Positions 14,601 to 20,882 of a DNA stretch of 32,000 nt are shown piece by piece; the stretch's first letter is position 1, and each line of letters starts with the position of its first letter. Below the pieces are notes generated by a model. It ran no database searches. It was not told where the DNA came from and saw nothing but the letters and a program-made list of their open reading frames with translations. Origin of the DNA: Acaryochloris marina MBIC11017 (GTDB lineage: Bacteria; Cyanobacteriota; Cyanobacteriia; Thermosynechococcales; Thermosynechococcaceae); assembly GCF_000018105.1 (NCBI RefSeq), contig NC_009925.1:2220001-2252000 (forward strand), written 5' to 3'. Both the position numbers and the translations under genes were made by a program.

Positions 14601-15881
14601 TTACGAGCCAATCGCCATTTCGTTGAAGCGAAGTTGCGATCGCACATTTACTCGATGATTGGCCTGCACATAGTCAGCAAGATACCGAACATCCCTAGCA
14701 ATCCCCGAAAAACGTCCAGACCCCCAGGTATAGAGCCAAGGTAAGCCCACAAAATAGAGTCCTTTCACCCCAGTGACACCCCGATCATGCCCAGGGTAAC
14801 CCTTGCCATCAAACACAGGAATTTCCACCCAGGAATAGTTCATGTCATAGCCAATGGACCAAATCACAGTGGTGATATGGGCAGCCTCTAGGTTCAGAGC
14901 AGTGGGTTCAGTGGCAGGTTCCCAAACTGGGCAATAGGGGGCCTCCACAGGGGCCTCAATTTGATGCTTGTCAATATAGGCATCAATTGTTCCCTTGATA
15001 CTTTCAGCTACCGCATCGGCCTGGTCCAAGTTCTCTCGCAAATTGGCATGAAAGGTTAACTGAGCCTCGCGAATATCCGTCAGTCTGCCGTAGAGCTGCA
15101 TTCCTTCCAGAGCAAAATGACGTAAATCAATCTCCCGCCCTCCACCACGGCCCGTTACATAGTGGTTGGTTTTGGTTCTCACCTGTTCTTTTTGGGGATG
15201 ATCTTCAATGGTCAGATCGTAGTAACCCAGTTGATCCAGCCAATCCACCACATCTTTGCCTCGGTATTGTCGGGGCGATCGCGGCGCACTACCAACACAC
15301 AAATGCACCTGTTTCCCCGACAGATGTAGATCTTCCGCAATCTGACATCCCGATTGCCCCGTTCCCACCACTAGAACTGCTCCATCGGCTAAACTCTCAG
15401 GATTTTTATACTCAGAAGAATGGAGTTGACGAATCCCTGCAGGTAAACGCTGGGCCATGCCAGGGATGCGAGGGCGATGATACCCACCAGTGGCCACCAC
15501 AATTTGATCGGCGGAAAACTCACCAATGGAAGTGGACACTTCAAACACATCGCTAATGGGGTTTTTGCGCACTCTCTGCACGCTGACACCTTCTCTAACT
15601 GGAGGATTAAAGGAACGGGCGTAGGCTTCGATATAATCCACGATTTGTTCTTTCTGCATAAACCCGTTGGGGTCATCCCCCGGATAGGAAAATCCGGGTA
15701 GCTGACATTGCCAATTCGGGGTGACCAGGCAGAACGAATCCCAACGCTTATTCCGCCAGGAATGGGCAATCTGATCCTGTTCAAAGATAATGTGATCGAT
15801 CTGGCGTTCGCCCAAACAGTAACTGACCGATAAACCAGCCTGTCCTCCACCGACAATGATGACGGAATAGTGACTGCCCAT
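14601..15881 (-). CDS. FAD-dependent (flavin-containing monooxygenase-like) oxidoreductase, Nit1C-associated (MSMEG_0569-type)
   Basis: Dinucleotide-binding motifs VIIVGGGQAGLS and VLVVGTGQSGCQIAED. The track start 15893 is a TTG. ATG 15881 (MGSHYSV...) is preceded by GGAGGG (minus-strand GATTGGAGGGAAAT-ATG). It is divergent from the nitrilase operon. Confidence 0.85.
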   Translation of the reverse strand: MGSHYSVIIVGGGQAGLSVSYCLGERQIDHIIFEQDQIAHSWRNKRWDSFCLVTPNWQCQLPGFSYPGDDPNGFMQKEQIVDYIEAYARSFNPPVREGVSVQRVRKNPISDVFEVSTSIGEFSADQIVVATGGYHRPRIPGMAQRLPAGIRQLHSSEYKNPESLADGAVLVVGTGQSGCQIAEDLHLSGKQVHLCVGSAPRSPRQYRGKDVVDWLDQLGYYDLTIEDHPQKEQVRTKTNHYVTGRGGGREIDLRHFALEGMQLYGRLTDIREAQLTFHANLRENLDQADAVAESIKGTIDAYIDKHQIEAPVEAPYCPVWEPATEPTALNLEAAHITTVIWSIGYDMNYSWVEIPVFDGKGYPGHDRGVTGVKGLYFVGLPWLYTWGSGRFSGIARDVRYLADYVQANHRVNVRSQLRFNEMAIGS

Positions 15882-15908
15882 ATTTCCCTCCAATCTGCGC
15901 TTGTTTGC

Positions 15909-15950
15909 ACCATAGAAGGCATACAGACGTGATCCTGTTACAGAGGCTAC
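15909..15950 (-). promoter_or_regulatory. Candidate NtcA-activated promoter for the flavoprotein gene
   Basis: The minus strand reads GTAGCCTCTGTAAC (GTA-N8-AAC, 15950..15937), then exactly 22 nt, then TATGGT (TAN3T, 15914..15909). This places the predicted TSS about 20 nt upstream of ATG 15881. Confidence 0.45.
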
Positions 15951-16093
15951 GAAATTGAAATGTTTAGTACTATCAGTAGGTTAGAAAAGGTTCGATGATG
16001 CTTCGGAATTGTGTTTGGGCTCCGCAATATTGCACATCCTATGATTTTCGATAGTCATAAACGATTTAATCTAAGCACTTTGGAGATTTGATC

Positions 16094-19301: not shown

Positions 19302-19371
19302 TTTTTAGAGGGTTTATGCCAGCAATCCCCCGATTGCTAGGTAGTACTATTTAGCAGCACAGAGGTATCTG

Positions 19372-19881
19372 ATGGCATCCAGTCGATATTGCTTTAAGTT
19401 GGCGCAATCTCCCCAGGATCTACGGGGATATTTTGACTTGCGTCAGTCTATTTTTTGCCAGGAACAAGGTCTATTTGAAGGGGACGATGAAGACGATATC
19501 GATACCACCGCCTATCCGATCGTAGCTATTGATCAAGAAGCACCTCCAGACCAACAGGTGGTCGGCGTAGTCCGCATTTACGAGGAGCAAGATCGCCTCT
19601 GGTACGGCGGTCGCTTAGGGGTTCATGCTGACTATCGGCGGGTGGGTCGCATCGGTAAGGGCCTGATCTATAAAGCCGTGACCACTGCTAATACTTGGGG
19701 ATGCGATCGCTTCTTGGCTACGGTCCAACTCCAGAACGTTCGGTTTTTTCAACGCCAGCACTGGGACTCCTTAGAAGAGATACAGATTTGCGATCGCCCC
19801 CATCACCTGATGGAAGCAGACTTAGCCTTCTATCCTCCCGGTCATGAACCCCGTCCCCAGCCCCTCCTGCAAGCCTCTTAA
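19372..19881 (+). CDS. GNAT N-acetyltransferase, Nit1C-associated (MSMEG_0567/Sll0786-type)
   Basis: The acetyl-CoA binding segment is LGVHADYRRVGRIGKGLIYKAV. An AGAGG SD lies upstream of ATG 19372. Its stop overlaps the next start (TAATG at 19879-19883). Confidence 0.85.
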   Translation: MASSRYCFKLAQSPQDLRGYFDLRQSIFCQEQGLFEGDDEDDIDTTAYPIVAIDQEAPPDQQVVGVVRIYEEQDRLWYGGRLGVHADYRRVGRIGKGLIYKAVTTANTWGCDRFLATVQLQNVRFFQRQHWDSLEEIQICDRPHHLMEADLAFYPPGHEPRPQPLLQAS

Positions 19882-20882
19882 TGCTGTCGGAGTTAGCCAC
19901 CGAATTACGACAAACCTTGGGCCTGCTGCATAAACGGGATATTCAACCCGTGGCCCGTCACTTGGGGGCTTGGGTCCCGGATAATACCACTCAAAAACCC
20001 ATTTGGTTAGGAGATGACTGTGCCGCTATCCCTGATGGTGAGGGTTATCTATTGCTGGCAGCGGAGGGCATGTGGTCCGTGTTGGTAGAAACAGAACCCT
20101 GGTTTGCAGGCTGGTGTGGAGTACTCGTCAACGTTAGCGATATCTATGCCATGGGAGGCAAACCGATTGCCGTAGTGGATGCCCTCTGGAGTCAGTCCAC
20201 GGATCAGGCAGAACAGCTTTGGCAAGGGATGCAAGCGGCATCTAAGGCCTTTAACGTGCCCATTGTTGGCGGCCATACTCACTGTCATAGCCCCTATAAA
20301 GCTCTATCGGTGGCAATTTTGGGACGCGCCCAACAGTTGATCACCAGTTTCAATGCCCAACCCGGCGATACCTTACTGCTGGTCACCGATCTCAAGGGTC
20401 AGCCCCATCCCAAATATCCGTTTTGGGATGCAGCGACAATGGCAGAACCCCAGACGCTACAGGCCCATCTCAATTTACTGCCCGCCCTGGCTGAGTCAGG
20501 ACTATGCGATGCCGGGAAAGACATTAGCATGGGGGGCTTAGTGGGCACCTTGTTGATGTTACTGGAGACTTCCGGTTGCGGGGCTGAGCTAGACCTAGAG
20601 GCGATTCCCTGTCCTTCGGATTTGGACTTCAAACAGTGGCTGGTGAGTTTTCCCAGTTATGGTTTTTTGCTCAGTGTTAGACCCGATTGTGTGGAGCCAA
20701 TCCAGCAGTTATTTGCCCCCCATGATTTGGTCTGTACAGCCATTGGACAAATCACGCCGGGGCATACCTTAACCCTAAAATCTAGCGCTGAGTCAACTTC
20801 CTTCTGGGACTTGAGCCAAGAATCCCTCACGGGTTTTTCTCCATCCCACGCAGACCGGAAGCACAACCCATCAAACCTCTAA
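19881..20882 (+). CDS. AIR-synthase-related (PurM/ThiL/HypE/SelD-fold) protein, Sll0787-type
   Basis: Motifs LGDDCAAIP, NVSDIYAMGGKP, VGGHT and KDISMGGLVGT are typical of the AIR-synthase-related superfamily. This is the fifth gene in the Nit1C order. Confidence 0.85.
   Translation: MLSELATELRQTLGLLHKRDIQPVARHLGAWVPDNTTQKPIWLGDDCAAIPDGEGYLLLAAEGMWSVLVETEPWFAGWCGVLVNVSDIYAMGGKPIAVVDALWSQSTDQAEQLWQGMQAASKAFNVPIVGGHTHCHSPYKALSVAILGRAQQLITSFNAQPGDTLLLVTDLKGQPHPKYPFWDAATMAEPQTLQAHLNLLPALAESGLCDAGKDISMGGLVGTLLMLLETSGCGAELDLEAIPCPSDLDFKQWLVSFPSYGFLLSVRPDCVEPIQQLFAPHDLVCTAIGQITPGHTLTLKSSAESTSFWDLSQESLTGFSPSHADRKHNPSNL

What the first reader, a model, noticed from the sequence alone, without database searches (positions are those of the whole stretch)
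14601..20882. Nit1C-type cluster (flavoprotein / Hyp1 / nitrilase / radical-SAM / GNAT / AIR-synthase-like): conserved pathway with unknown product
Seen: the gene content and order match the conserved Nit1C cluster. The junctions are tight (9 nt between nitrilase and rSAM; TAATG overlap between GNAT and the AIRS-like gene), which suggests one operon. The flavoprotein gene is divergently transcribed.

Established knowledge:
- The cluster was defined by comparative genomics of nitrilases.
- Its Synechocystis version (the sll0783 operon) is induced by nitrogen starvation.
- In Pseudomonas (nitB-H) it is needed for cyanide assimilation or tolerance.
- The metabolite that the radical-SAM, GNAT, AIRS-like and glycosyltransferase enzymes make or process remains unidentified.

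This locus is a clean cyanobacterial example, with consensus NtcA promoters on both sides.
Basis: partly seen in the sequence, partly recalled or inferred. Interest (0 to 1): 0.7.

Follow-up and report, generated by a model that had tools for sequence, protein, structure and literature searches.

The report
Nit1C nitrilase cluster, split by restriction island
This is a genuine copy of the already-known, nitrogen-starvation-induced Nit1C nitrilase gene cluster in Acaryochloris marina; its product is still unknown, two of its genes lie 8 kb beyond the flagged span behind an inserted restriction-modification island, and its promoter carries a conserved second operator not mentioned in any paper read here.

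Summary
All six ORFs in 14601-20882 score far above the curated cut-offs of the Nit1C-specific NCBIfam/TIGRFAM models, and the junctions are as described (9 nt gap; TAATG overlap).

The interpretation (Nit1C, product unknown) holds, but the locus is neither complete nor 'clean' as flagged:
- The MSMEG_0565 glycosyltransferase (28857-30014) and Hyp2/MSMEG_0570 (29998-30291, minus strand, inverted) lie about 8 kb downstream.
- A yhcG nuclease gene plus a complete type I restriction-modification system with a PIN cassette separates them from the operon.
- An Sll0782-type GAF-LuxR regulator gene follows at 30458-31867.
- The split is shared by other Acaryochloris strains, and all genes remain under strong purifying selection.

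Regulatory sites:
- The Hyp1 promoter has a perfect NtcA box.
- The flavoprotein promoter box has one mismatch.
- A third perfect box lies between Hyp2 and the regulator gene.

New here: a lux-box-like 20-bp palindrome (16492-16511) lies a fixed 91-94 nt upstream of the NtcA box in most cyanobacterial Nit1C promoters.

Structure and fusion evidence:
- Hyp1 models as a DsrE/YchN-like fold.
- Hyp2 has no match among solved structures, but occurs fused to the flavoprotein elsewhere.

Verdict: a known kind of cluster in a rearranged form, of modest interest.

The parts
14601..15881 (-). NitH: MSMEG_0569-family flavin-dependent oxidoreductase (426 aa, GGGQAG FAD motif)
   Evidence: TIGR04046 703.8 bits vs cut-off 498. 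Pfam Pyr_redox_3 / FMO-like. Start ATG 15881 preceded by GGAGGG. Annotated as 426 aa.
15909..15950 (-). NtcA-type promoter of the flavoprotein gene: GTAGCCTCTGTAAC (one mismatch to GTAN8TAC), N22, TATGGT
   Evidence: A perfect GTAN8TAC sits at the same position (-67 to -90 from the start codon) upstream of the flavoprotein gene in most of 42 related loci.
16492..16511 (.). Perfect 20-bp palindrome ACCTATCA-CTTT-TGATAGGT, lux-box-like (CT-N12-AG). Its centre is 91 nt upstream of the NtcA-box centre. Predicted operator of a second regulator.
   Evidence: Unique in the window. CCTRTC-N6-GAYAGG (at most 1 mismatch) lies within 450 nt upstream of Hyp1 in 47 of 64 loci, including Synechocystis. Spacing to the NtcA box is 91-94 nt in 37 of 40 distal sites and 83 nt in 3.
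16556..16565 (+). Half-site CCTGTTACTT, about 28 nt upstream of the NtcA-box centre (proximal, degenerate copy of the palindrome)
   Evidence: A fuller second site occupies the same position in the Pseudanabaena loci and in L057.
16586..16627 (+). NtcA-activated promoter of the Hyp1 operon: GTAGTTATTGATAC, N22, TACTGT. Predicted transcription start near 16634.
   Evidence: Conserved base for base in relatives. A perfect box lies within 300 nt upstream of Hyp1 in 49 of 59 loci, against 0-2 upstream of the internal genes.
16695..17177 (+). NitB/Hyp1: MSMEG_0572/Sll0783 family, 160 aa, DsrE/YchN/TusD-like fold, single invariant Cys113
   Evidence: TIGR04044 289.6 / 110. 87% identical to Sll0783 and 88% to the Tistrella mobilis protein. 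Invariant columns. AlphaFold2 model with mean pLDDT 70. Foldseek best match 3mc3, E 9e-7, with DsrEFH, YchN and TusBCD also matched.
17208..18206 (+). NitC: Nit6803-family nitrilase, catalytic E47/K129/E136/C163
   Evidence: TIGR04048 591.4 / 503. 578 bits to PDB 3WUY, the Synechocystis nitrilase. Residue positions. Cys163 is conserved in all 67 sequences compared.
18216..19301 (+). NitD: MSMEG_0568-family radical SAM enzyme with a variant motif C121-X9-C131-X2-C134 and five further conserved Cys (C190, C206, C347-X2-C350-X2-C353)
   Evidence: TIGR04043 620.5 / 304; also matches NF045502 variant_rSAM. Seven of the eight Cys are 100% conserved and C206 is 97% conserved in 75 sequences. No solved-structure relative by sequence.
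19372..19881 (+). NitE: MSMEG_0567/Sll0786-family GNAT acetyltransferase
   Evidence: TIGR04045 249.8 / 68. Pfam Acetyltransf_1.
19881..20882 (+). NitF: sll0787-family AIR-synthase-like (PurM superfamily) protein, translationally coupled to the GNAT gene (TAATG)
   Evidence: TIGR04049 507.7 / 321. AIRS and AIRS_C domains. Distant PDB relatives are ThiL, PurL and SelD. Junction read.
20871..21998 (-). Inserted gene: YhcG/DUF1016 PD-(D/E)xK nuclease (PADLOC candidate PDC-S02). Its 3' end overlaps the AIRS-like gene by 12 nt.
   Evidence: Pfam YhcG_C and DUF1016_N. PDC-S02, E 1.8e-139. Absent at this junction in L009 and L011 and in most cyanobacterial loci. Carries an in-frame stop in L008.
22037..28574 (-). 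Inserted type I restriction-modification system: hsdS 22037-23758, PIN-domain gene 23758-24240, partner ORF 24201-24728, hsdM 24716-26182, EcoAI-family hsdR 26217-28574
   Evidence: NCBIfam NF046051, 1134.7 bits. PADLOC Specificity_I, MTase_I and REase_I. PIN domain. Window 22032-28870 has no counterpart in L008, which aligns on both sides of it.
28857..30014 (+). MSMEG_0565-family GT4 glycosyltransferase, the optional eighth Nit1C gene, displaced 7,974 nt from the AIRS-like gene
   Evidence: TIGR04047 546.1 / 259.85, matching profile positions 1-373 of 373. It follows the AIRS-like gene within 2-150 nt in most related loci. dN/dS 0.11-0.16.
29998..30291 (-). NitG/Hyp2: MSMEG_0570 family (97 aa), inverted, tail-to-tail with the glycosyltransferase gene (17-nt overlap)
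   Evidence: TIGR04042 132.7 / 79.85. Same strand as the glycosyltransferase gene in A. thomasi and in about 30 other loci. AlphaFold2 pLDDT 92.8. No PDB fold match. Occurs fused to the flavoprotein in P0390 and in three shorter products.
30369..30382 (.). Perfect NtcA box GTACTGGTTGATAC in the divergent Hyp2 / regulator intergenic region
   Evidence: On the minus strand it is followed by N24 and TAAAGT. On the plus strand it lies 89 nt before the regulator's start codon, the position conserved upstream of this regulator in other loci. NtcA ChIP-seq signal upstream of sll0782 in Synechocystis (PMC5714215).
30458..31867 (+). Sll0782-type GAF + GerE/LuxR-HTH transcription regulator, a recurrent neighbour of cyanobacterial Nit1C clusters
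   Evidence: Pfam GAF_2 and GerE. 51% identical to Sll0782 over 298 aa and 72% over the HTH region. A homologue is adjacent to the cluster in 19 other distinct loci, including Synechocystis.

Best explanation
The locus is the Acaryochloris marina copy of the Nit1C (nitHBCDEFG / sll0783-operon / gpr) cluster, in a rearranged but functional form.

Shown here:
- All seven defining gene families, plus the optional MSMEG_0565 glycosyltransferase, are present, full length and under strong purifying selection.
- They fall into at least four transcription units:
  - flavoprotein (minus strand)
  - Hyp1-nitrilase-rSAM-GNAT-AIRS (plus strand)
  - glycosyltransferase (plus strand)
  - Hyp2 (minus strand)
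- The units are separated because a yhcG nuclease gene and a type I R-M system were inserted after the AIRS-like gene, and Hyp2 was inverted.

Inferred regulation: under nitrogen limitation, 2-oxoglutarate-activated NtcA binds the boxes at 16586, 15937 and 30369. This switches on the operon, the flavoprotein gene and the Sll0782-type GAF-LuxR regulator gene (and probably Hyp2). A second factor, most plausibly that regulator, binds the conserved palindrome 91 nt upstream of the NtcA box.

Inferred function:
- The Nit6803-type nitrilase releases ammonium from a nitrile (a cyanide adduct or an unsaturated nitrile).
- The other proteins make or recycle a still-unidentified small-molecule partner or substrate. 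This activity is tied to cellular NADPH/redox balance. The proteins concerned are:
  - the DsrE-like Hyp1
  - the radical SAM enzyme, which probably carries an auxiliary Fe-S cluster
  - the GNAT and AIRS-like pair
  - the glycosyltransferase
  - the Hyp2 and flavoprotein pair
For: Identity:
- Eight family-specific HMM hits above their cut-offs.
- The nitrilase scores 578 bits to the solved Synechocystis enzyme 3WUY and has the catalytic tetrad.
- Hyp1 is 87% identical to Sll0783.
- The rSAM protein is identical to the A. marina MBIC11017 protein that NCBI already names 'MSMEG_0568 family'.

Architecture:
- The usual cyanobacterial order is flavoprotein, Hyp1, nitrilase, rSAM, GNAT, AIRS, glycosyltransferase, Hyp2, with AIRS-to-glycosyltransferase gaps of 2-150 nt.
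- The insertion was mapped against L008, L009 and L011.
- The same split is present in strain CCMEE 5410.

Functionality: dN/dS is 0.00-0.16 for every cluster gene among the strains that carry the insertion.

Regulation:
- NtcA boxes with correctly spaced -10 hexamers.
- Perfect boxes are enriched upstream of Hyp1 (49 of 59 loci), the flavoprotein gene and the regulator gene, but not upstream of internal genes.
- NtcA ChIP-seq peaks at the sll0783/slr0821 bidirectional promoter and at sll0782.
- Ammonium represses sll0783-ssl1464 and sll0782.
- The palindrome is present in 47 of 64 loci at a fixed 91-94 nt spacing.

Function:
- nitB and nitC are required for growth on cyanide or nitriles in Pseudomonas.
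- The mycobacterial eight-gene cluster is GlnR-induced more than 500-fold, raises the NADPH/NADP ratio and confers peroxide resistance.
- Hyp1 has a DsrE/YchN-like fold with an invariant Cys.
- The rSAM enzyme has eight conserved Cys.
- Hyp2-flavoprotein fusions exist.
- The name of NCBIfam model TIGR04050 (MSMEG_0567_Cter) implies a GNAT-AIRS fusion in mycobacteria. That the mycobacterial protein is such a fusion is my own recollection and was not checked here.
Against: - No expression or metabolite data exist for this organism.
- The glycosyltransferase gene has no recognisable NtcA box or palindrome upstream, so its co-regulation is unproven.
- The NtcA box at 30369 has a 24-nt spacer towards Hyp2 and only a weak -10 (TTCAAT) towards the regulator gene.
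- Purified Nit1C nitrilases are poor on cyanide and only modest on the best artificial nitriles, and the authors doubt that nitrogen provision is the main role.
- Assigning the palindrome to the GAF-LuxR regulator rests only on gene neighbourhood and on its resemblance to lux boxes. Many loci with the palindrome show no regulator gene within 10 kb, and no palindrome lies upstream of the regulator gene itself.
- The sulfur-carrier reading of Hyp1 rests on a model of only moderate confidence (pLDDT 70).
Confidence: 0.6

Rival explanations
1. Nit1C is primarily a biosynthetic machine rather than a nitrogen-scavenging pathway. It would make a small redox-active metabolite or cofactor, possibly containing sulfur, glycosylated and N-acetylated. 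The proposed roles are:
- DsrE-like Hyp1 as sulfur donor
- the BioB/LipA-related radical SAM enzyme forming a C-S or C-C bond
- the AIRS-like enzyme activating a carbonyl with ATP
- the nitrilase performing a maturation step
- the Hyp2-flavoprotein pair recycling the product with NAD(P)H
For: - Hyp1 has a DsrE/YchN/TusD-like fold with one invariant Cys.
- The rSAM enzyme gives weak hits to LipS2 lipoyl synthase. Podar et al. place it next to biotin-synthase-related COG2516. It has a second set of five conserved Cys.
- The glycosyltransferase gives weak hits to MshA and BshA, and the flavoprotein gives a weak hit to the YpdA bacillithiol-disulfide reductase family.
- NADPH and peroxide phenotypes in Mycobacterium, and the Sll0783 link to the NADPH pool in Synechocystis.
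- The authors of the Nit11764 study also raise the idea of a biosynthetic metabolon.
Against: - All the similarities to thiol-pathway enzymes are far below those families' cut-offs and may reflect generic GT4, FMO or rSAM folds.
- Synechocystis and several other cyanobacteria lack the glycosyltransferase.
- No metabolite has been detected.
- The genetic requirement for nitB and nitC in cyanide and nitrile assimilation is explained more directly by catabolism.
Confidence: 0.25
2. The cluster is a dedicated cyanide or nitrile detoxification and tolerance system. Nitrogen control would be incidental, and the accessory genes would repair or protect cyanide-sensitive metallo-enzymes.
For: [quoted passage not shown]
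- Cyanobacteria are reported to produce cyanide (cited in PMC9716671).
Against: - In cyanobacteria and mycobacteria the cluster is controlled by the nitrogen regulators NtcA and GlnR and is induced without added cyanide.
- NtcA boxes are conserved across 49 of 59 cyanobacterial loci.
- Cyanide is a poor substrate for the nitrilase.
Confidence: 0.1
3. The A. marina copy is a decaying remnant. The R-M insertion and the Hyp2 inversion would have broken the operon, so that the displaced genes are no longer used.
For: - The cluster is interrupted by 7,974 nt of minus-strand foreign genes.
- The glycosyltransferase gene has no NtcA box.
Against: - All eight genes are full length against their HMMs.
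- dN/dS is 0.05-0.16 for the glycosyltransferase and Hyp2 genes among strains that share the insertion.
- The arrangement is retained in at least three Acaryochloris lineages.
Confidence: 0.03

Closest known systems
Synechocystis sp. PCC 6803 sll0783-sll0787-ssl1464 operon, with divergent slr0821 and neighbouring sll0782
   Same: - Same seven protein families. Hyp1 is 87% identical, the nitrilase scores 578 bits to 3WUY, Hyp2 is 53% identical and the regulator 51%.
- The flavoprotein gene is divergent in both.
- NtcA control of the operon, the flavoprotein gene and the regulator gene.
- The lux-box-like palindrome is also present there, at -305 from sll0783.
   Different: - Synechocystis has no glycosyltransferase, and Hyp2 directly follows the AIRS-like gene on the same strand.
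- The regulator gene sits beside the flavoprotein gene rather than beside Hyp2.
- The A. marina copy carries the yhcG plus type I R-M insertion and an inverted Hyp2.
Pseudomonas nitA / nitBCDEFGH (P. pseudoalcaligenes CECT5344, P. fluorescens NCIMB 11764)
   Same: Same gene families, NitB to NitH. The nitrilase has the same catalytic tetrad (E44/K126/E133/C160 there, E47/K129/E136/C163 here). Both are nitrogen-responsive.
   Different: - In the proteobacterial versions the flavoprotein gene is the last co-directional gene, whereas here it is divergent.
- The Pseudomonas regulator is a sigma-54-dependent Fis-family activator, NitA. Here regulation is by NtcA plus a GAF-LuxR protein.
- A role in cyanide assimilation has been shown only in Pseudomonas.
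Mycobacterium smegmatis gpr cluster MSMEG_0565-0572
   Same: An eight-gene version that includes the MSMEG_0565 glycosyltransferase, as here. It is induced by nitrogen starvation.
   Different: - It is controlled by GlnR.
- The GNAT and AIRS-like parts appear to be fused there (implied by the name of NCBIfam model TIGR04050; my own recollection, not checked).
- The paper lists an extra putative amidase, MSMEG_0566.
- The phenotypes shown are peroxide resistance and a raised NADPH/NADP ratio, not nitrile use.
Type I restriction-modification loci with embedded toxin-antitoxin cassettes and an adjacent YhcG/DUF1016 nuclease gene (the inserted island)
   Same: EcoAI-family HsdR, HsdM and HsdS, a PIN-domain gene and the PDC-S02 candidate. 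The hsdS target-recognition regions and the cassette content vary between strains.
   Different: Its location is unusual: inside a conserved metabolic gene cluster, at a junction that holds other selfish or conflict-type genes in related cyanobacteria (Uma2, Fic, a PemK/MazF toxin).

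Membership tests
Nit1C cluster (Podar et al. 2005) | Subfamily-1 / Nit6803-type nitrilase (TIGR04048) with the Glu-Lys-Cys catalytic residues | tested here: met
   591.4 bits vs cut-off 502.6. 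578 bits to 3WUY. E47/K129/E136/C163 present.
Nit1C cluster (Podar et al. 2005) | ORF1 / Hyp1 (NitB, Sll0783 / MSMEG_0572 family, 160-163 aa) immediately upstream of the nitrilase gene | tested here: met
   TIGR04044 289.6 / 109.85. 160 aa. 30-nt gap to the nitrilase gene.
Nit1C cluster (Podar et al. 2005) | ORF3, radical SAM protein of the MSMEG_0568 family | tested here: met
   TIGR04043 620.5 / 303.7. 9-nt gap after the nitrilase gene.
Nit1C cluster (Podar et al. 2005) | ORF4 GNAT (MSMEG_0567 / Sll0786) and ORF5 AIRS-like (sll0787) proteins | tested here: met
   TIGR04045 249.8 / 68.45 and TIGR04049 507.7 / 321.3. TAATG overlap.
Nit1C cluster (Podar et al. 2005) | ORF6 / Hyp2 (NitG, MSMEG_0570 family, about 100 aa) | tested here: met
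TIGR04042 132.7 / 79.85 at 29998-30291(-).
Nit1C cluster (Podar et al. 2005) | [quoted passage not shown] | tested here: met
   TIGR04046 703.8 / 498.35, minus strand, divergent from Hyp1.
Nit1C cluster (Podar et al. 2005) | Typical rather than defining: six co-directional genes with few or no intergenic nucleotides. The original description already accepts rearranged members, such as Verrucomicrobium and the glycosyltransferase insertion in Burkholderia. | tested here: not met
   Only five genes are contiguous and co-directional (16695-20882). The glycosyltransferase and Hyp2 genes lie 7,974 nt and 9,115 nt downstream, behind minus-strand yhcG and type I R-M genes, and Hyp2 is inverted. The gene content is complete, so this is a rearranged member.
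Nit1C cluster (Podar et al. 2005) | Induction by nitrogen limitation (NtcA in cyanobacteria) | tested here: inconclusive
   The sequence evidence is strong: NtcA boxes with -10 hexamers, and conservation across loci. Expression in A. marina cannot be measured with these tools.
Nit1C cluster, eight-gene MSMEG_0565-0572 variant | MSMEG_0565-family GT4 glycosyltransferase associated with the cluster | tested here: met
   TIGR04047 546.1 / 259.85, matching profile positions 1-373 of 373.
DsrE/DsrF/YchN/TusD sulfur-relay fold (considered for Hyp1) | The fold, plus a conserved Cys that could carry sulfur | tested here: inconclusive
   Foldseek matched 3mc3 (E 9e-7), 3pnx, 1jx7, 2hy5 and 2d1p with TM-scores 0.5-0.8, using a model of pLDDT 70. 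Cys113 is invariant. Its equivalence to the DsrE/TusD active-site Cys was not checked, and no Pfam DsrE hit was found. Resemblance only; Hyp1 is not filed as a member.
Type I restriction-modification system (inserted island) | HsdR, HsdM and HsdS genes together | tested here: met
   NF046051, 1134.7 bits (HsdR); N6_Mtase plus HsdM_N; Methylase_S with two matched stretches.

The most novel reading that the evidence does not exclude
Nit1C may be a biosynthetic and redox module, not a nitrile-catabolic operon. On this reading it makes an undiscovered sulfur-containing small molecule, comparable to a low-molecular-weight thiol or a cofactor.

Proposed roles:
- DsrE-like Hyp1 delivers sulfur to the radical SAM enzyme, which carries an auxiliary cluster.
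- The GNAT-AIRS pair and the glycosyltransferase decorate the product.
- The Hyp2-flavoprotein pair keeps it reduced with NAD(P)H.
- The Sll0782-type regulator senses the molecule through its GAF domain and acts at the conserved palindrome 91 nt upstream of the NtcA box.

That palindrome and regulator pair would then be a ready-made biosensor for fishing out the unknown metabolite.
Probability: 0.1. Interest if true: 0.8.

Novelty: new member of a known kind. Interest (0 to 1): 0.35.

Why it matters
The cluster itself is a twenty-year-old puzzle: it is conserved across phyla, induced by nitrogen starvation, and its product is unknown. This copy adds little to that, because Synechocystis, Pseudomonas and M. 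smegmatis are better experimental systems, and NCBI already names at least the radical SAM protein of this cluster by its family in A. marina.

Three by-products of the check are useful.

1. Cyanobacterial Nit1C promoters share a composite architecture: an NtcA box plus a lux-box-like palindrome at a fixed 91-94 nt. An Sll0782-type GAF-LuxR regulator is often encoded next door. Together these give a concrete, testable handle on pathway-specific regulation and possibly on the ligand.

2. Hyp2-flavoprotein fusions and the DsrE-like fold of Hyp1 suggest which proteins work together.

3. The junction between the AIRS-like and glycosyltransferase genes has repeatedly received selfish or defence genes. 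The A. marina clade shows that the cluster tolerates being split into at least four transcription units while staying under purifying selection.

Tried and rejected
- Rfam found nothing. The whole window at gathering thresholds gave no match. The 871-nt divergent region at E up to 1 gave only a chance scaRNA hit at 14.9 bits.
- Hyp2 as a ThiS/MoaD-like carrier was rejected. The C-terminal Gly-Gly of the window's Hyp2 suggested it, but the GG is unique to this strain and the tail is not conserved.
- The 51-aa ORF at 16095-16250 is not a conserved cluster component.
  - It occurs only in A. marina, as AM1_2226.
  - It has no significant family hit.
  - Its database cluster-mate of 575 aa is unrelated.
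- No mobile-element signatures flank the R-M island. There are no long direct or inverted repeats, integrase or transposase genes, only a 6-bp TTAGAC microhomology of doubtful meaning.
- The simple sigma-70 promoter scan found fewer sites than shuffled sequence gave, and the terminator scan was only about 1.8 sd above the shuffles. It was not used.
- PDB sequence searches for Hyp1, Hyp2 and the rSAM enzyme found nothing significant. Foldseek for Hyp2 had a best E of 0.17 despite pLDDT 92.8.
- A literature search for a function of 'methanogenesis marker 2', the nearest named relative of the AIRS-like protein, found nothing useful.
- A literature search for a post-2021 identification of the Nit1C product found none.
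- Cys18 of Hyp2 looked invariant in the 30-sequence alignment, but it is Phe in Synechocystis and in L045 and Ala in L076. Only Cys63 is conserved throughout.

Full report
**1. Observation**

ORF listing and family scans confirm six genes in 14601-20882. Each scores far above the curated cut-off of its Nit1C-specific NCBIfam/TIGRFAM model (bits / cut-off):
- flavoprotein, TIGR04046: 704 / 498
- Hyp1, TIGR04044: 290 / 110
- nitrilase, TIGR04048: 591 / 503
- radical SAM, TIGR04043: 620 / 304
- GNAT, TIGR04045: 250 / 68
- AIRS-like, TIGR04049: 508 / 321

Start codons need correcting. Hyp1 starts at ATG 16695. The upstream ATG at 16650 reads ACG in L007, L008 and L012, and the family N-terminus MPEV is invariant. 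The nitrilase starts at 17208 and the flavoprotein at 15881, behind GGAGGG.

The window comes from Acaryochloris marina. It is record AP026075 of GCA_024347835.1. The rSAM protein is identical to ABW27242.1 of strain MBIC11017, which NCBI already names 'MSMEG_0568 family radical SAM protein'.

**2. The cluster is larger than the flagged span and is interrupted**

Podar et al. (PMC1199592) define Nit1C as Hyp1, nitrilase, rSAM, GNAT, AIRS, a roughly 100-aa Hyp2, and a flavoprotein. A glycosyltransferase lies between ORF5 and ORF6 in some taxa.

Both missing genes are in the window:
- The MSMEG_0565 glycosyltransferase is at 28857-30014 (TIGR04047, 546 / 260).
- Hyp2 is at 29998-30291 on the minus strand (TIGR04042, 133 / 80), tail-to-tail with the glycosyltransferase gene.

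Between the AIRS-like and glycosyltransferase genes lie 7,974 nt of minus-strand genes:
- a YhcG/DUF1016 PD-(D/E)xK nuclease (PADLOC candidate PDC-S02)
- HsdS
- a PIN-domain gene with a partner ORF
- HsdM
- an EcoAI-family HsdR

In 80 cyanobacterial loci fetched with an AIRS-like profile, the usual order is flavoprotein, Hyp1, nitrilase, rSAM, GNAT, AIRS, glycosyltransferase, Hyp2. The AIRS-to-glycosyltransferase gap is usually 2-150 nt, and Hyp2 is on the same strand.

Pairwise DNA comparison shows how the close relatives differ at this junction:
- L008 (89% identical AIRS-like protein) keeps yhcG, with an in-frame stop, but lacks window 22032-28870, the R-M module.
- L009 has a Fic gene instead.
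- A. thomasi (L011) has a Uma2 gene and an un-inverted Hyp2.
- Acaryochloris sp. CCMEE 5410 has the same R-M split as the window, with a different toxin-antitoxin cassette.

So the insertion is old within the A. marina clade. No flanking repeats or recombinase genes were found.

All cluster genes, including the displaced glycosyltransferase and Hyp2 genes, have dN/dS of 0.00-0.16 among strains that carry the insertion. The split cluster is therefore maintained by selection.

**3. Regulation**

The window contains only two perfect GTAN8TAC sites, which is about the number chance would give for 32 kb. Both, however, sit in Nit1C promoter regions:
- 16586-16599, followed by N22 and TACTGT, upstream of Hyp1.
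- 30369-30382, between Hyp2 (minus strand) and the regulator gene (plus strand).

The flavoprotein promoter has GTAN8AAC followed by N22 and TATGGT.

Across related loci the picture is consistent. A perfect box lies within 300 nt upstream of Hyp1 in 49 of 59 loci. It is upstream of the flavoprotein gene in most of 42 loci and upstream of the regulator gene in about half of 17. Upstream of the internal genes it occurs 0-2 times.

This matches published ChIP-seq in Synechocystis. There are two NtcA peaks in the sll0783/slr0821 bidirectional promoter and a peak upstream of sll0782 (PMC5714215). Ammonium represses sll0783-ssl1464 and sll0782 (PMC10094980).

The gene at 30458-31867 is the Sll0782 orthologue, with GAF and GerE domains. 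It is 51% identical over 298 aa and 72% over the HTH region. A homologue neighbours the cluster in 19 other distinct loci, including Synechocystis.

*A second conserved promoter element.* Aligning Hyp1 promoters exposed a perfect 20-bp palindrome, ACCTATCA-CTTT-TGATAGGT, at 16492-16511. It is unique in the window.
- The pattern CCTRTC-N6-GAYAGG, with at most one mismatch, hits 69 times in 1.30 Mb of loci.
- By my count of the labels, about 55 of these hits lie upstream of Hyp1 or the flavoprotein gene.
- 47 of 64 loci that carry Hyp1 have it within 450 nt upstream of Hyp1, including Synechocystis.
- The centre-to-centre distance to the NtcA box is 91-94 nt in 37 of 40 distal sites and 83 nt in the other three. 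The distance to the start codon, by contrast, varies from -100 to -418.
- A weaker second site, a half-site at 16556-16565 in the window, lies 28 nt upstream of the NtcA-box centre.

The consensus ACCTATCGAWWTCGATAGGT has the CT-N12-AG layout of lux and las boxes (my own knowledge). I infer, but have not shown, that the Sll0782-type LuxR-family regulator binds it. Podar et al. reported finding no conserved transcription-factor sites upstream of the cluster. The papers I read do not link Sll0782 to the cluster.

**4. What the proteins suggest**

- **Nitrilase.** It has the catalytic E47/K129/E136/C163 and is a close homologue of the solved Nit6803 enzyme. Purified family members prefer planar nitriles with the cyano group in a vinylic position, such as fumaronitrile and cinnamonitrile. 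They are poor on cyanide (PMC7815647).
- **Hyp1.** It is extraordinarily conserved: at least 83% identical across all 120 listed homologues, which include Alpha- and Betaproteobacteria, and exactly 160 aa in most of them. It models as a DsrE/YchN/TusD-like fold, in line with the YchN-like assignment of Podar et al. It has a single invariant Cys, Cys113.
- **rSAM enzyme.** It has a variant CX9CX2C motif and five further conserved Cys, including a C-terminal CX2CX2C. This is compatible with an auxiliary Fe-S cluster.
- **Hyp2.** The model is confident (pLDDT 92.8), but no solved fold matches it. An exhaustive profile search found it fused N-terminally to the MSMEG_0569 flavoprotein in a full-length 536-aa protein and in three shorter products that carry only the N-terminal part of a flavoprotein.
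- **GNAT and AIRS-like genes.** They are translationally coupled here. The name of model TIGR04050 implies that they are fused in mycobacteria.

These features suggest three sub-modules: Hyp1 with the nitrilase and the rSAM enzyme; the GNAT with the AIRS-like protein; and Hyp2 with the flavoprotein.

Genetics from other organisms:
- nitB and nitC are needed for growth on cyanide or nitriles in Pseudomonas (PMC5939895).
- The mycobacterial cluster raises the NADPH/NADP ratio and peroxide resistance (PMC6039565).
- Sll0783 is needed to keep the reducing state (NADPH pool) that supports PHB accumulation in Synechocystis.

**5. Most likely mechanism and rivals**

What is shown:
- A complete Nit1C gene set is present and maintained by selection.
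- NtcA-type promoters sit at the right places.

What is inferred:
- Nitrogen limitation, acting through NtcA and 2-oxoglutarate, induces the five-gene operon, the flavoprotein gene and the regulator gene (and probably Hyp2).
- The regulator or another factor acts at the palindrome.
- The nitrilase liberates ammonium from a nitrile.
- The accessory enzymes make or recycle an unidentified partner molecule connected with NAD(P)H balance.

I put identity at more than 0.95, NtcA control at about 0.85, binding of the palindrome by the Sll0782 orthologue at about 0.35, and the overall functional picture at about 0.5.

Rivals:
- A primarily biosynthetic sulfur or redox metabolite pathway (0.25 in its general form; the fully specified version, with sulfur delivery by Hyp1 and sensing by the regulator, is given 0.1 as the novel reading)
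- A dedicated cyanide-tolerance system (0.1)
- A decaying remnant (0.03, contradicted)

**6. Novelty and verdict**

The cluster is a known kind. The rSAM protein is already named by its family in A. marina records, and no paper in the searchable library identifies the product. So the open question stands, but this locus does not make it more tractable than the existing model organisms do.

The rearranged architecture makes this a new, atypical member rather than a new kind. The conserved composite promoter and the protein-fusion hints are the most useful by-products.

Interest: 0.35.

Noticed in passing
window 20883-28856; loci L008, L009, L011, L026, L031, L037, L049, L057: The junction between the AIRS-like and glycosyltransferase genes of cyanobacterial Nit1C clusters repeatedly hosts different selfish or conflict-type genes:
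- yhcG plus a type I R-M system (A. marina clade)
- yhcG alone
- Fic
- Uma2 (two independent cases, on opposite strands)
- a PemK/MazF toxin
Most other loci have a gap of 2-150 nt.
   Followed up: partly
window 16492-16511, and the Hyp1 promoters of 47 related loci: A lux-box-like palindrome (consensus ACCTATCGAWWTCGATAGGT) lies a fixed 91-94 nt upstream of the NtcA box. It is present even in Synechocystis, upstream of sll0783, and a second weaker site lies 63 nt downstream of it. None of the papers read here mentions it.
   Followed up: yes
P0390, P0444, P0448, P0490 (from the Hyp2 profile search): Natural fusions of Hyp2 (MSMEG_0570 family) to the N-terminus of the MSMEG_0569 flavoprotein. 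This suggests that the two proteins work as a pair.
   Followed up: partly
window 15981-16410, including the ORF at 16095-16250: A segment of about 430 nt in the divergent promoter region has no counterpart in L009. It carries a 51-aa orphan ORF (AM1_2226 in A. marina MBIC11017) with no homologues or family. In L009 the equivalent space holds an alpha/beta-hydrolase gene.
   Followed up: partly
window 11997-14583: Immediately upstream of the flavoprotein gene lie a 478-aa protein with no significant family match and an overlapping ARPP-2 domain protein (PF22549, 391 bits). Neither is in PADLOC. Their function and any link to the cluster are unknown.
   Followed up: no
window 6808-10698: A 1,296-aa protein made largely of RTX/hemolysin-type calcium-binding repeats, with a choice-of-anchor C domain.
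   Followed up: no
L061 and L069 (Pseudanabaena), between the AIRS-like and glycosyltransferase genes; L008 5783-6574, between the rSAM and GNAT genes: Extra same-strand genes lie inside some Nit1C clusters: a class I SAM methyltransferase in Pseudanabaena, and a 263-aa ORF with no family in L008. They could be lineage-specific pathway additions rather than selfish inserts.
   Followed up: no
L011 13638-14825 (Acaryochloris thomasi): A formamidase-type (FmdA_AmdA) gene lies just downstream of Hyp2 in A. thomasi. This may be relevant to cyanide or formamide nitrogen metabolism.
   Followed up: no
window 19302-19371: The 70-nt spacer between the rSAM and GNAT genes contains a 7-bp stem with a CCCC loop (AGCAATC-CCCC-GATTGCT). 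This spacer varies from about 3 to 830 nt in related loci, so the element is not conserved.
   Followed up: no
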